Below, one piece after another: positions 29,977-31,597 of a stretch of 64,000 nt of DNA. Origin of the DNA: Candidatus Saccharimonadales bacterium. Its GTDB lineage: Bacteria > Patescibacteriota > Saccharimonadia > Saccharimonadales > DATKHC01. Below the pieces are notes generated by a model. The model worked only from the letters and a program-made list of their open reading frames with translations, did not search any database and was not told where the DNA came from. The position numbers and the translations under genes were made by a program. Each line of letters begins with the position of its first letter. Within the stretch, counting starts at the first letter, position 1. The stretch covers positions 182,967-246,966 of the forward strand of contig JBBQBA010000002.1 of NCBI GenBank assembly GCA_038317055.1. Reading direction: 5' to 3'.

Positions 29977-31380
29977 CTATGCCTCTTCTTTAACCTGGCT
30001 AATATCACCCTTCATGTAAAAGGCGTTTTCAGATTTATCGTCATGTTTACCATCTAGGATTTCTTTGAAGCCTGCGATAGTATCTTTTAGCTTAACGTAT
30101 TGACCGGGTTTACCAATAAATACTTCAGCAACATGGAATGGTTGAGTTAAAAATCTTTGAATACGTCGTGCGCGAGCAACGGTTTTCTTATCTTCATCAG
30201 ATAGTTCTTCCATCCCTAGAATGGCAATAATATCTTGAAGGTCTTTATAACGCTGTAAAATTCTTTGAACTTCTCTGGCAACATTATAGTGTTCCTCACC
30301 AACTATTTCTGGATCTAGGATTGTTGAACTAGAGTCTAGTGGATCAACAGCAGGGTACAAGCCAAGTTCGGTTAAGGCACGACTTAATGTAATCGTAGAG
30401 TCAAGGTGAGCAAAAGCTGTAGCTGGAGCAGGGTCTGTTAAATCGTCGGCTGGAACAAATACTGCTTGAACTGATGTAATAGATCCTTTAGTTGTAGATG
30501 TAATACGTTCTTGTAATGAACCCATCTCTTGAGCTAGATTCGGTTGATAACCTACAGCTGACGGTAGTCGTCCAAGAAGGGCTGATACCTCAGCACCGGC
30601 TTGAGTGAACCTAAAAATATTATCTATAAATAGCAATACGTCACTTCCTTTATCTCGAAAACCCTCTGCAATGGTTAAACCAGATAGTCCGACTCGTAAA
30701 CGTGCACCTGGTGGCTCATTCATCTGTCCGAAAACTAAGGATGTTTTATCGAGTACTCCAGAATCTGCCATTTCGTAATAAAGGTCATTTCCTTCACGAG
30801 TTCTTTCACCAACTCCAGCAAATACTGAGTAACCGCTATGAAATTTAGCAATATTATTTATAAGTTCAGTTATAAGTACAGTTTTCCCAACACCGGCGCC
30901 ACCAAATAGACCAACTTTACCACCCTTTACCATTGGACAGATAAGATCAATTACTTTAATTCCGGTTTCAAGTATTTCCACACTCCCAGCTTGATCAACA
31001 AGTGGCGGTGGAGTCTTATGGATAGGTGAGTATTCGCTAAAATTATCATCTTTACCGTCAATTGGTTGACCAGTTACATTAAACATTCTTCCAAGAGTTT
31101 TCTCGCCAATCGGTACACTAATTGCTGCTTTGGTATCACCTACTTCAGTACCACGCTCCAACCCATCAGTCGAACCTAACGCAATTGCTCTTACGCTAGA
31201 TTCACTTAAGTGTTGCGCTACTTCTAAAATTAAATCTGCATCATTTAGTCTTACTTTAAGTGCGTTGTAGATTGCTGGTAGTTTATCTTCTGGAAAATCG
31301 ATATCAACAACCACACCAACAATTTGGCTTACTACTCCGTGAGTTTGTTTTTCAGTTGTCGCTTTAGTTTGAGTCGCCAT
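29977..31380 (-). CDS. atpD: F0F1 ATP synthase subunit beta
   Basis: [16 protein letters not shown] and P-loop [15 protein letters not shown]-like LSDEDK is conserved. Confidence 0.95.
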
Positions 31381-31597
31381 TTATTTCCTCCGTTTGATTT
31401 CCAAATAATTGTTCTAGTACGAATTGAGTAACTAGTCTGTCTCTATATTTTGCAGTCATTATTACTCCGTTAGCTTCAAGGTCTTCAATTTTTCCGGTTA
31501 CTAATGACGACAGATCTTCAATTAACCTTGGTGTGTCTGTTATTCCCATAAGTTCGCTAAAATCACTCTCACGAGTTTCATGTGCTAAATTTGTCAT
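31364..31597 (-). CDS. Small acidic hypothetical protein (77 aa) inserted between atpG and atpD
   Basis: It fills a 213-nt gap that is normally only a few tens of nt. Its ATG overlaps the atpG TGA (ATGA), and its 3' end overlaps the atpD RBS and start by 17 nt. The sequence is non-repetitive and no ORF lies on the opposite strand. Confidence 0.4.

What the first reader, a model, noticed from the sequence alone, without database searches (positions are those of the whole stretch)
31364..31597. Translationally coupled 77-codon acidic ORF inserted between atpG and atpD in the F1 part of the ATP synthase operon
In most bacteria, atpG and atpD are separated by a few tens of nucleotides. Here the gap is 213 nt, and it is exactly filled by an ORF. 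The ORF start overlaps the atpG stop (ATGA). Its last codons read through the atpD Shine-Dalgarno sequence and start codon, giving a 17-nt overlap.

The predicted protein is [77 protein letters not shown]. It is acidic, non-repetitive and has no TM segment.

Small accessory or inhibitory ATP synthase proteins encoded inside atp operons are known in other lineages, including the alphaproteobacterial zeta subunit, cyanobacterial AtpTheta and Mycobacterium epsilon-associated peptides. A lineage-specific regulatory subunit is therefore a plausible inference.

The same operon also has a 131-aa delta subunit (atpH) that lacks about 50 N-terminal residues. This hints that the architecture of the stator and central stalk is modified.
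Basis: partly seen in the sequence, partly recalled or inferred. Interest (0 to 1): 0.6.

Follow-up and report, generated by a model that had tools for sequence, protein, structure and literature searches.

The report
Fast-evolving orphan gene inside ATP-synthase operon
A real but lineage-restricted 77-codon gene sits between two ATP-synthase genes of a Saccharibacteria genome, in a spot that half of this bacterial group fills with unrelated, rapidly changing small genes, so it is more likely an operon hitch-hiker than a conserved new subunit.

Summary
A 77-codon ORF (31364-31597, minus strand) exactly fills the 213-nt atpG-atpD gap. Its start overlaps the atpG stop (ATGA) and its end overlaps atpD by 17 nt.

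It is a real gene:
- Its codon usage is gene-like.
- The chance of an open frame this long is about 0.002.
- It has its own Shine-Dalgarno sequence.
- One homologue (125 aa) exists in 1.84 billion protein representatives. It sits at the same position in a close relative and shares a constrained C-terminal helical hairpin.

It is not a conserved subunit. The next-closest relative, at 77% gamma identity, has only a 30-nt gap.

In about 130 Saccharibacteria loci, 51% have at least 100 nt between atpG and atpD. That space is almost always filled by a same-strand ORF coupled to both neighbours. About 90% of these ORFs are mutually unrelated orphans. The atpA|atpG (35%) and atpD|atpC (31%) junctions behave the same way; the stator and Fo junctions do not (1-4%). 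Slot ORFs are under purifying selection (omega about 0.2), yet homology disappears below about 90% beta identity.

Best reading: a lineage-specific small protein hitch-hiking in a hypervariable operon slot. A role as an F1 regulator is possible but unsupported.

The parts
31364..31597 (-). ORF77: 77-aa acidic, all-helical orphan protein gene that fills the atpG-atpD gap
   Evidence: ORF list and sequence. Gene-like codon usage and P(open) about 0.002. A homologue lies at the same position in L162. AlphaFold2 on the single sequence gives pLDDT 68.5 with helices 9-16, 22-42 and 49-66.
31608..31612 (-). GGAGG Shine-Dalgarno sequence for ORF77, 10 nt upstream of its ATG. It is encoded by the conserved Ala-Glu-Ala codons at the gamma C-terminus.
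   Evidence: Read from the RNA sequence. The gamma C-terminal motif GG(A/V)EA is conserved across loci.
31594..31597 (-). ATGA overlap: the ORF77 start codon overlaps the atpG stop codon (translational coupling)
   Evidence: The same ATGA arrangement occurs in L162 and in 49 of 155 junction ORFs of relatives.
31388..31522 (-). Conserved C-terminal helix-loop-helix region of ORF77 (residues 26-70), the only part alignable with the homologue P0002
   Evidence: 50% identity over 50 residues. pN is 0.29-0.31 and pS is 0.49-0.50, while pS of the flanking genes is saturated at 0.71-0.81. The corresponding helices are predicted in both models.
31387..31391 (-). GGAGG Shine-Dalgarno sequence of atpD, lying inside the 3' end of ORF77 with a 6-nt spacer
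   Evidence: Sequence.
31364..31380 (-). 17-nt overlap between the ORF77 3' end and the atpD 5' end. The ORF77 stop codon lies 14-16 nt past the atpD ATG.
   Evidence: In relatives, 94 of the 122 junction ORFs that end at or near the downstream gene's start overlap it.
31594..32463 (-). atpG (F1 gamma subunit, 289 aa), the upstream neighbour
   Evidence: Pfam ATP-synt, E = 2.9e-84.
29977..31380 (-). atpD (F1 beta subunit, 467 aa), the downstream neighbour
   Evidence: Pfam ATP-synt_ab, E = 8.5e-71.

Best explanation
ORF77 is a real small gene. It encodes a 77-aa acidic, soluble, all-helical protein.

How it is expressed. It has no promoter of its own. Ribosomes finishing atpG restart at the overlapping ATGA, helped by a GGAGG that is built into the conserved gamma C-terminal codons. 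Ribosomes finishing ORF77 terminate 14-16 nt past the atpD start, which also has its own GGAGG. atpD expression is therefore preserved.

What it is. ORF77 is the current occupant of a hypervariable slot between atpG and atpD that is typical of Saccharibacteria. Unrelated small genes have repeatedly been gained in this slot, have diverged very quickly and have been lost. The atpA|atpG and atpD|atpC junctions behave the same way.

Most likely role (inference). It is an operon hitch-hiker: a lineage-restricted accessory protein that uses the transcription and translation of the atp operon. The tight overlaps on both sides are imposed by the need not to interrupt expression of the downstream F1 genes. 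It is not a conserved ATP-synthase subunit. Its own biochemical activity is unknown. The part under selection is the C-terminal helical hairpin (residues 26-70).

Shown: coding status, the coupling signals, the single homologue at the same position, the clade-wide slot pattern, the fast turnover and the purifying selection.
Inferred: hitch-hiking as the reason for the location, and the lack of a role in ATP synthase.
For: Coding status.
- Codon-usage score of 0.434 bits per codon, in the gene range, and P(open) about 0.002.
- The only homologue, P0002, lies between atpG and atpD of L162 with the same ATGA start.
- Its C-terminal 50 codons have pN 0.29 against pS 0.49. Synonymous sites of the flanking genes are saturated (pS 0.71-0.81) at 91-95% amino-acid identity.

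Not an RNA element. No Rfam match, folding z-score +0.98, and no promoter or terminator in the gap.

Slot pattern.
- 67 of 134 non-redundant loci have a gap of at least 100 nt.
- One forward ORF covers at least 90% of the gap in 53 of those 67, against 3 of 67 on the reverse strand. Shuffled gaps give mean coverage 0.39.
- Starts and ends overlap or abut the neighbouring genes.

Occupants are unrelated to each other. Only 13 of 149 match any Pfam family: 10 are 23S_rRNA_IVP, 2 are HMA and 1 is LMWPc.

Turnover.
- At beta identity of 94% or more, slot ORFs are homologous in 11 of 11 pairs where both loci have one.
- At 91-94%, 2 pairs are homologous, 16 are non-homologous and 30 are presence/absence pairs.
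- Below 88%, none is homologous.

The next-closest relative after L162, L082, has only a 30-nt gap.

Mobility. IVP genes sitting in different slots are 48-66% identical even where beta is only 77-82% identical. A 45-aa IVP remnant survives in L050.

Selection. Slot ORFs have omega 0.17-0.22 where dS is unsaturated. Elsewhere pN is 0.30-0.46 against pS 0.70-0.84.

Context from the literature. ATP synthase is not essential in Southlakia epibionticum, and Saccharibacteria are naturally transformable (PMC10633639). This makes insertions in this operon tolerable and transferable; that link is my inference.
Against: - The slots occur only at junctions between F1 core genes: A|G 35%, G|D 51% and D|C 31%, against E|F 1/30, F|H 1/75 and H|A 3/82. 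A purely generic landing pad does not obviously predict this. Proteins that bind F1 would.
- The occupants are mostly acidic and soluble: median pI 4.8, and none of the 71 G|D ORFs has a TM segment. They are also under purifying selection. They are therefore not junk, and a shared type of function is conceivable.
- I could not test whether other conserved operons of Saccharibacteria have similar slots.
- There is no expression or interaction data.
- The ORF77 family has only two members, so the selection estimate rests on 42-50 codons.
Confidence: 0.5

Rival explanations
1. ORF77 and the other slot ORFs are lineage-specific proteins that bind F1. They could be regulators or inhibitors of ATP hydrolysis, or assembly factors. 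Being encoded next to their partners and co-translated with them would favour co-translational assembly. They would be analogous to the independently evolved IF1, zeta and AtpTheta.
For: - The slots are confined to the A|G, G|D and D|C junctions and are nearly absent from the Fo and stator junctions.
- Coupling on both sides is tight.
- The proteins are small, acidic, helical and soluble.
- They are under purifying selection.
- Patescibacterial ATP synthase is thought to run in an unusual regime, possibly in reverse (PMC11665869; PMC10633639).
- Known small inhibitors of ATP synthase are non-homologous between lineages (established knowledge).
Against: - Presence/absence and non-homologous replacement occur between genomes whose beta subunits are 91-94% identical. 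The supposed binding surfaces barely change, yet the supposed ligands are swapped.
- The relative L082 lacks the ORF.
- Some occupants clearly belong to unrelated families: IVP/Avd-like, CopZ-like and ArsC-like.
- ORF77 has no similarity to any known ATP-synthase protein.
Confidence: 0.2
2. ORF77 is a translated spacer. The peptide has no function. The frame is kept open only so that ribosomes cover the 213-nt insert and are delivered to atpD, which avoids transcriptional polarity and loss of coupling. The insert itself would be the decaying remnant of an earlier insertion.
For: - ORFs fill the gaps end to end whatever their sequence.
- Even short gaps carry mini-ORFs running from the atpG stop to the atpD start: 9 codons in L082, and others in L003, L011 and L093.
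- A Shine-Dalgarno sequence is built into the gamma C-terminal codons.
- ORF77 is shorter than its homologue (77 against 125 aa), and their N-termini cannot be aligned.
- An IVP remnant in L050 shows decay in place.
Against: - pN is well below pS in every homologous pair of slot ORFs, including ORF77/P0002.
- The codon usage of ORF77 is fully gene-like.
- A helical hairpin is predicted at moderate confidence, pLDDT about 80-87 over residues 31-60.
Confidence: 0.15
3. The ORF is a chance open frame in a non-coding spacer, or the spacer is a structured RNA or regulatory element.
For: None beyond the lack of annotation and the lack of homologues in most databases.
Against: - P(open) is about 0.002 and codon usage is gene-like.
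- A homologue at the same position shows pN below pS.
- There is no Rfam match and no excess folding energy, z = +0.98.
- There is no promoter or terminator in the gap.
Confidence: 0.03

Closest known systems
Small lineage-specific ATP-synthase inhibitors or regulators: mitochondrial IF1, the alphaproteobacterial zeta subunit, cyanobacterial AtpTheta and the epsilon C-terminal domain
   Same: They are small, soluble, largely helical and restricted to particular lineages, and they are not homologous to each other. ORF77 is also small, helical and lineage-restricted, and it is encoded next to the F1 genes.
   Different: ORF77 shows no sequence or fold similarity to them. Those proteins are conserved throughout their clades, whereas ORF77 is found in two genomes and is absent from a relative with 77% gamma identity. 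No interaction has been shown.
atp-operon accessory genes atpI and atpZ (Pfam ATPase_gene1)
   Same: They are extra small ORFs encoded in, and co-transcribed with, the atp operon. This window has a weak AtpZ-like ORF at 36106-36402.
   Different: They are membrane proteins at the 5' end of the operon and are conserved across phyla. ORF77 is soluble, lies between F1 genes and is an orphan.
23S rRNA intervening-sequence proteins / four-helix-bundle proteins (PF05635, TIGR02436, Avd-like)
   Same: They occupy the very same atp slots in other Saccharibacteria: 10 of 149 junction ORFs, at all three junctions. They are small and helical. The homologue P0002 is of similar length, 125 aa, with four long predicted helices.
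   Different: ORF77 and P0002 do not match the family: no PF05635 hit for either in Pfam, and the hhalign probability against an alignment of the slot IVPs is 0.1%.
ATGA-type translational coupling in atp operons, for example chloroplast atpB-atpE (PMC3241655, listed)
   Same: The same four-base stop/start overlap links neighbouring cistrons.
   Different: Here the overlap links an F1 gene to an inserted orphan ORF. A second overlap then links that ORF to the next F1 gene.
Morons and ORFan hitch-hikers inserted between conserved genes of phage structural modules (my own knowledge)
   Same: Unrelated small genes appear at fixed junctions of an otherwise conserved gene order, and they turn over quickly.
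   Different: These slots are in a cellular housekeeping operon, have no promoter or terminator of their own, and are translationally coupled on both sides.

Membership tests
Protein-coding gene | An open frame longer than chance allows, in the operon strand, with a start codon and ribosome-binding site | tested here: met
   P(77 open codons) is about 0.002. ATG with GGAGG 10 nt upstream.
Protein-coding gene | Codon usage like that of the host genome's genes, in this frame only | tested here: met
   0.434 bits per codon, against an in-frame mean of 0.349 (sd 0.115) and an off-frame mean of -1.01. The other five frames of the ORF are negative.
Protein-coding gene | Amino-acid-level constraint when compared with a homologue | tested here: met
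   Against P0002 in L162, over 42-50 codons, pN is 0.29-0.31 and pS is 0.49-0.50, while pS of the flanking genes is 0.71-0.81. The sample is small.
Conserved ATP-synthase accessory subunit or regulator | The same protein family co-occurs with the atp genes across the clade | tested here: not met
   The family has two members among 5.8 billion and 1.84 billion sequences. It is absent in L082. The ORFs at this position in about 65 other loci are unrelated.
Conserved ATP-synthase accessory subunit or regulator | Homology to a known subunit or inhibitor (epsilon C-terminal domain, zeta/DUF1476, IF1, AtpTheta, AtpI/Z) | tested here: not met
   No Pfam hit at E <= 1. PDB profile search gives a best E of 0.5 to unrelated proteins. 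Foldseek against the PDB gives no hit with E < 1.
Conserved ATP-synthase accessory subunit or regulator | Physical association with F1 or Fo | not testable with these tools
   Needs pull-down or complexome data, or multimer structure prediction.
23S_rRNA_IVP / four-helix-bundle protein (PF05635) | Match to the family profile | tested here: not met
   Pfam gives no PF05635 hit for ORF77 or P0002. hhalign of A1 against A3 gives probability 0.1%.
Structured RNA element in the spacer | An Rfam match or excess thermodynamic stability | tested here: not met
   No Rfam hit above chance: best E 1.6, all to eukaryotic or archaeal snoRNA/miRNA families. Folding z-score +0.98.
Saccharibacterial F1-junction slot ORFs (a class defined here) | A same-strand ORF fills a gap of at least 100 nt between atpA|atpG, atpG|atpD or atpD|atpC, and overlaps or abuts both neighbours | tested here: met
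   ORF77 covers 100% of the 213-nt gap with 4-nt and 17-nt overlaps. The same pattern is seen in 53 of 67 loci with gaps of at least 100 nt.

The most novel reading that the evidence does not exclude
Saccharibacteria carry three hypervariable slots between the F1 core genes (alpha|gamma, gamma|beta, beta|epsilon). The small, mostly acidic, rapidly evolving proteins in these slots are co-translated with F1. In the most novel reading they act on F1, as lineage-specific modulators or assembly factors of an ATP synthase that works in an unusual regime in these respiration-less epibionts. ORF77 would be one such modulator.
Probability: 0.15. Interest if true: 0.8.

Novelty: new variant of a known kind. 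Interest (0 to 1): 0.5.

Why it matters
On its own, ORF77 is an orphan small gene of unknown function.

The context is what is worth noting. About half of the sampled Saccharibacteria hold unrelated small genes between atpG and atpD, and about a third do so at each of the two neighbouring F1 junctions. These genes are translationally coupled to both neighbours and are under purifying selection. They are essentially absent from the Fo and stator junctions. They turn over while the beta subunit changes by only a few percent.

I found no description of this in the searchable literature.

It gives two things:
- a defined, experimentally tractable place to study gene birth, insertion and loss in ultra-small genomes, because Saccharibacteria are naturally transformable (PMC10633639);
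- a concrete, testable question about whether Patescibacterial ATP synthase has lineage-specific partners.

It also warns annotators that these ORFs are real genes and not oversized intergenic spacers.

Tried and rejected
- **Word-indexed protein search with ORF77.** It found only itself. A profile search with ORF77 plus P0002 found only those two.
- **Metagenome scan with ORF77 peptides.** No relative was found.
- **Pfam, PHROGs, NCBIfam, PDB sequence search and Foldseek for ORF77.** Nothing was found.
- **tblastn, phmmer and hmmsearch of ORF77, P0002 and their profile against all junction ORFs.** No relationship was found; the best E was 0.08.
- **Idea that ORF77/P0002 is a diverged IVP four-helix-bundle protein.** Rejected by hhalign.
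- **Idea that the insert is a duplicated piece of the window.** There is no self-similarity.
- **Idea that degenerate homing-endonuclease genes explain the slots.** No HNH, GIY-YIG or LAGLIDADG hits among 149 junction ORFs.
- **RNA element.** Rejected.
- **Internal promoter or terminator.** None was found.
- **Single-sequence AlphaFold2.** It gave only moderate (68.5) and low (53.7) confidence, so no conclusions about fold were drawn beyond helical content.
- **Multimer prediction with gamma, beta or epsilon.** The tools do not allow it.
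Full report
**1. The observation**

The window (35.4% G+C) carries a complete F-type ATP-synthase operon on the minus strand.

| Gene | Coordinates |
|---|---|
| AtpZ-like ORF | 36106-36402 |
| atpB | 35276-36106 |
| atpE | 34979-35209 |
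| atpF | 34422-34958 |
| atpH | 34030-34425 |
| atpA | 32467-34017 |
| atpG | 31594-32463 |
| 77-codon ORF | 31364-31597 |
| atpD | 29977-31380 |
| atpC | 29548-29976 |

The atpG-atpD gap is 213 nt, and the ORF fills it exactly. Its ATG overlaps the atpG TGA as ATGA. Its last 17 nt overlap atpD, and it reads through the atpD GGAGG. It has 15 D/E against 6 K/R, pI 4.25, and no hydrophobic segment.

**2. Is it a gene?**

- With the local base composition, a 77-codon open frame has a probability of about 0.002.
- A codon-usage log-likelihood trained on the 29 long genes of the window gives 0.434 bits per codon. In-frame 67-codon windows of those genes give 0.349 +/- 0.115, and off-frame windows give -1.01 +/- 0.35. 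No off-frame window reaches the ORF's value. The other five frames of the ORF score between -0.09 and -1.4.
- A GGAGG lies 10 nt upstream of the ATG. It is formed by the Ala-Glu-Ala codons of the gamma C-terminus. This C-terminal motif is conserved across the clade.
- The gap contains no promoter-like or terminator-like site and no Rfam match. Its RNA folds no better than shuffled sequence (z = +0.98).

So this is a coding sequence and not an RNA element.

**3. Homologues**

The word-indexed search of 5.8 billion proteins returned only the protein itself, and Pfam gave nothing. The exhaustive HMMER search of 1.84 billion cluster representatives returned one more protein, P0002. It is 125 aa, with E = 2.6e-4 and 49% identity over ORF77 residues 26-76.

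P0002 is encoded at the same place in L162 (NCBI GCA_009712145.1):

| Feature in L162 | Coordinates |
|---|---|
| 3' end of atpG | 2-385 |
| ORF (ATGA overlap with atpG) | 382-759 |
| atpD (26-nt overlap with the ORF) | 734-2137 |
| atpC | 2138-2569 |

L162 is a close relative. The gamma C-terminus is 91% identical, beta 92% and epsilon 95%. Even so, synonymous sites of these flanking genes are saturated (pS 0.71-0.81).

In the 42-50 alignable C-terminal codons of the ORF, pN is 0.29-0.31 and pS is 0.49-0.50. The C-terminal half is therefore constrained, at least partly at the amino-acid level. The N-terminal parts (25 against 70 residues) cannot be aligned.

A profile of the two sequences finds nothing further. 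Single-sequence AlphaFold2 predicts three helices for ORF77 (9-16, 22-42, 49-66; mean pLDDT 68.5, about 80-87 over residues 31-60). It predicts an all-helical P0002 (pLDDT 53.7) whose helices 64-87 and 94-116 correspond to the conserved hairpin. Foldseek and a PDB profile search give no meaningful hits.

**4. The same position in relatives**

I fetched 160 loci containing atpG relatives from genome and metagenome collections. Almost all are Saccharibacteria. None encodes anything similar to ORF77. The closest of these, L082 (gamma 77% identical), has a 30-nt gap holding only a 9-codon mini-ORF.

The position itself is nonetheless remarkable.

- Among 134 non-redundant loci, 67 have an atpG-atpD gap of at least 100 nt, and the longest is 1116 nt.
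- In 53 of those 67, a single same-strand ORF covers at least 90% of the gap.
- The reverse strand does so in 3 of 67. Shuffled gaps give mean coverage 0.39.
- The remaining loci mostly have two tandem ORFs.

Of 155 non-redundant junction ORFs:

- 49 start with the ATGA overlap;
- 18 start with a one-base overlap;
- 51 start within 15 nt of the upstream stop;
- 94 end by overlapping the downstream start.

The few outgroup loci where the gap could be measured (Chloroflexota, Bacillota, Berkelbacteria) have gaps of 79 nt or less.

**5. What fills the slots**

All-against-all BLAST and HMMER comparisons put the ORFs into many tiny families plus about 85 singletons. Of 149 junction ORFs, only 13 match any Pfam family:

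- 10 are 23S-rRNA-IVS/four-helix-bundle proteins, which are Avd-like in PHROGs and NCBIfam;
- 2 are HMA/CopZ-like;
- 1 is an LMW-PTP/ArsC.

There are no homing endonucleases. ORF77/P0002 is not a diverged IVP protein (hhalign probability 0.1%). Most occupants are acidic (median pI 4.8; 70% below 5.5), and none of the 71 atpG|atpD ORFs has a TM-like segment.

**6. Junction specificity**

The fraction of non-redundant loci with at least 100 nt between neighbouring genes is as follows.

| Junction | Loci with >= 100 nt | Percent |
|---|---|---|
| atpE\|atpF | 1/30 | 3% |
| atpF\|atpH | 1/75 | 1% |
| atpH\|atpA | 3/82 | 4% |
| atpA\|atpG | 48/136 | 35% |
| atpG\|atpD | 64/126 | 51% |
| atpD\|atpC | 25/81 | 31% |

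The atpA|atpG and atpD|atpC gaps are filled by coupled same-strand ORFs in the same way. Filled slots co-occur within genomes: 9 loci have all three filled and 30 have none. In the window, only the atpG|atpD slot is filled.

**7. Tempo and selection**

Pairs of loci were sorted by beta-subunit identity.

| Beta identity | Both have slot ORFs, homologous | Both have slot ORFs, not homologous | Only one has a slot ORF |
|---|---|---|---|
| >= 94% | 11 | 0 | 1 |
| 91-94% | 2 | 16 | 30 |
| < 88% | 0 | all | - |

Divergence of homologous slot ORFs is extreme. L024 and L101 have beta subunits 97.6% identical but slot ORFs only 41% identical.

Even so, homologous pairs show pN of 0.30-0.46 against pS of 0.70-0.84. 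In the one family with unsaturated dS, omega is 0.17-0.22, against 0.01-0.05 for gamma and beta. Slot ORFs are therefore real proteins under purifying selection, but that selection is roughly ten times weaker than on the F1 subunits.

Because the rate is so high, I cannot tell whether "unrelated" orphans are independent insertions or one ancient gene diverged beyond recognition. Independent insertion certainly happens:

- distinct known families occupy the slots;
- IVP genes in different slots are 48-66% identical even where beta is only 77-82% identical;
- L050 retains a 45-aa IVP remnant.

**8. Interpretation**

Shown:

- ORF77 is a coding gene, coupled to atpG and atpD.
- It belongs to a two-member family with a constrained C-terminal helical hairpin.
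- It occupies a Saccharibacteria-specific hypervariable slot.

Inferred: the most economical explanation is hitch-hiking.

- The gamma C-terminus supplies a ready-made Shine-Dalgarno sequence and an ATGA. Whatever lands after atpG is therefore translated.
- Only same-strand, terminator-free inserts that keep ribosomes flowing to atpD are tolerated.
- ATP synthase is non-essential in Southlakia epibionticum, and Saccharibacteria are naturally competent (PMC10633639). Both facts would ease the gain and exchange of inserts between highly conserved flanking genes.

I put about 0.5 on this reading.

The main rival, at about 0.2, is that slot proteins act on F1. The restriction to junctions between F1 core genes, the solubility and acidity of the proteins, and the purifying selection all favour this. 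The turnover between near-identical F1 complexes and the presence of clearly unrelated families argue against it.

A pure translated-spacer role, at about 0.15, fits the end-to-end ORFs and the mini-ORFs in short gaps. It does not fit pN being well below pS. A chance ORF or an RNA element is essentially excluded.

**9.

The short delta subunit (131 aa; Pfam OSCP positions 66-170 of 172) is real. However, delta is 121-141 aa in 90 of the 91 related loci measured, whether or not a slot ORF is present. It says something about the clade's stator. It says nothing about ORF77.

**10. Novelty**

Searches of the held literature found no description of ORFs between the F1 genes of Saccharibacteria or Patescibacteria. 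ORF77 itself is an ordinary orphan. The clade-wide pattern of slots specific to F1 junctions is, as far as I can tell, undescribed, and it is the more interesting result.

Noticed in passing
window 34030-34425 (-); atpH in L002-L161: The delta (OSCP) subunit is short, 131 aa here, and lacks about the first 65 positions of the Pfam OSCP model. In 90 of the 91 related loci measured it is 121-141 aa (the other call is 643 aa), so the truncated N-terminal domain is a clade-wide trait. atpF overlaps atpH by 4 nt, which leaves no room for a longer delta N-terminus.
   Followed up: partly
L002-L161, the atpA|atpG and atpD|atpC junctions: These junctions are also hypervariable slots. 35% and 31% of non-redundant loci have at least 100 nt there, filled by coupled same-strand ORFs. 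The atpE|atpF, atpF|atpH and atpH|atpA junctions almost never do (1-4%). Filled slots co-occur within genomes.
   Followed up: partly
L037:3898-4284, L038:3893-4279, L040:3896-4282, L045:3898-4284, L073:3872-4354 (G|D); L026:3617-4009, L039:5470-5847, L100:2628-3044 (D|C); L052:2557-2961, L112:491-886 (A|G): Genes for 23S-rRNA-IVS/four-helix-bundle (Avd-like) proteins occupy all three atp slots in different lineages. They are 48-66% identical across slots even where the beta subunits are only 77-82% identical. This suggests the family moves between slots or inserts repeatedly.
   Followed up: partly
L050:3863-4000: A 45-aa ORF in a 119-nt atpG|atpD gap retains similarity to the C-terminus of the IVP four-helix-bundle proteins of sister lineages. 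It appears to be a decayed remnant that is still open and still coupled.
   Followed up: partly
L082:1099-1130; L003/L083 (47-nt gap); L011 (28-nt gap); L093 (43-nt gap): Even short atpG-atpD gaps contain mini-ORFs of 9-14 codons. They start at or just after the atpG stop and, in L082, L011 and L093, end on or just before the atpD start. I did not test whether this exceeds chance.
   Followed up: no
L106:1222-1452, L159:2268-2501 (also L128:469-813 and L130:2199-2501 by eye); L120:2017-2508: Some atpA|atpG slot ORFs are recognisable metal or redox proteins. Two are CopZ-like HMA domains with a CxxC motif by Pfam, and two more look similar by eye. One is an ArsC/LMW-phosphatase-like protein.
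   Followed up: partly
L111:3364-3879 and L111:3879-4361: Two tandem paralogous ORFs (171 and 160 aa, 29% identical, E = 2.5e-9) fill a 1041-nt atpG|atpD gap. This indicates a duplication inside the slot.
   Followed up: no
L064, L154, L157, L158 (atpG|atpD, 160 aa): A conserved 160-aa slot protein has weak, sub-threshold similarity to nucleoside 2-deoxyribosyltransferase and DUF4406 (E about 0.02). It is the only slot family with unsaturated dS, and its omega is 0.17-0.22. Sister genomes with 93-94% beta identity (L068-L070, L160, L161) have a -4 nt overlap and no ORF.
   Followed up: partly
window 36106-36402 (-): A 98-aa ORF overlaps the atpB start by 1 nt. It has a weak match to Pfam ATPase_gene1 (AtpZ-like; E = 0.0023, below the curated cut-off). 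The best promoter-like site of the region (10 of 12 matches) lies just upstream of it at 36438-36410.
   Followed up: partly
window 29089-29544 (+): A 151-aa ORF with no Pfam match runs convergent to atpC and ends 3 nt from the atpC stop. Its codon usage is gene-like (0.428 bits per codon). It is another local orphan.
   Followed up: no
L024 vs L101, L037 vs L038, window vs L162 (atpD, atpG): Synonymous sites of atpD and atpG are at or near saturation (pS 0.58-0.81) even between genomes whose beta subunits are 92-98% identical. Protein identity therefore greatly understates the divergence between these Saccharibacteria.
   Followed up: partly
L027:1857-2799: The apparent 1122-nt atpA|atpG gap in L027 is an artefact of a masked run of N inside atpA. 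It should not be counted as a slot.
   Followed up: yes
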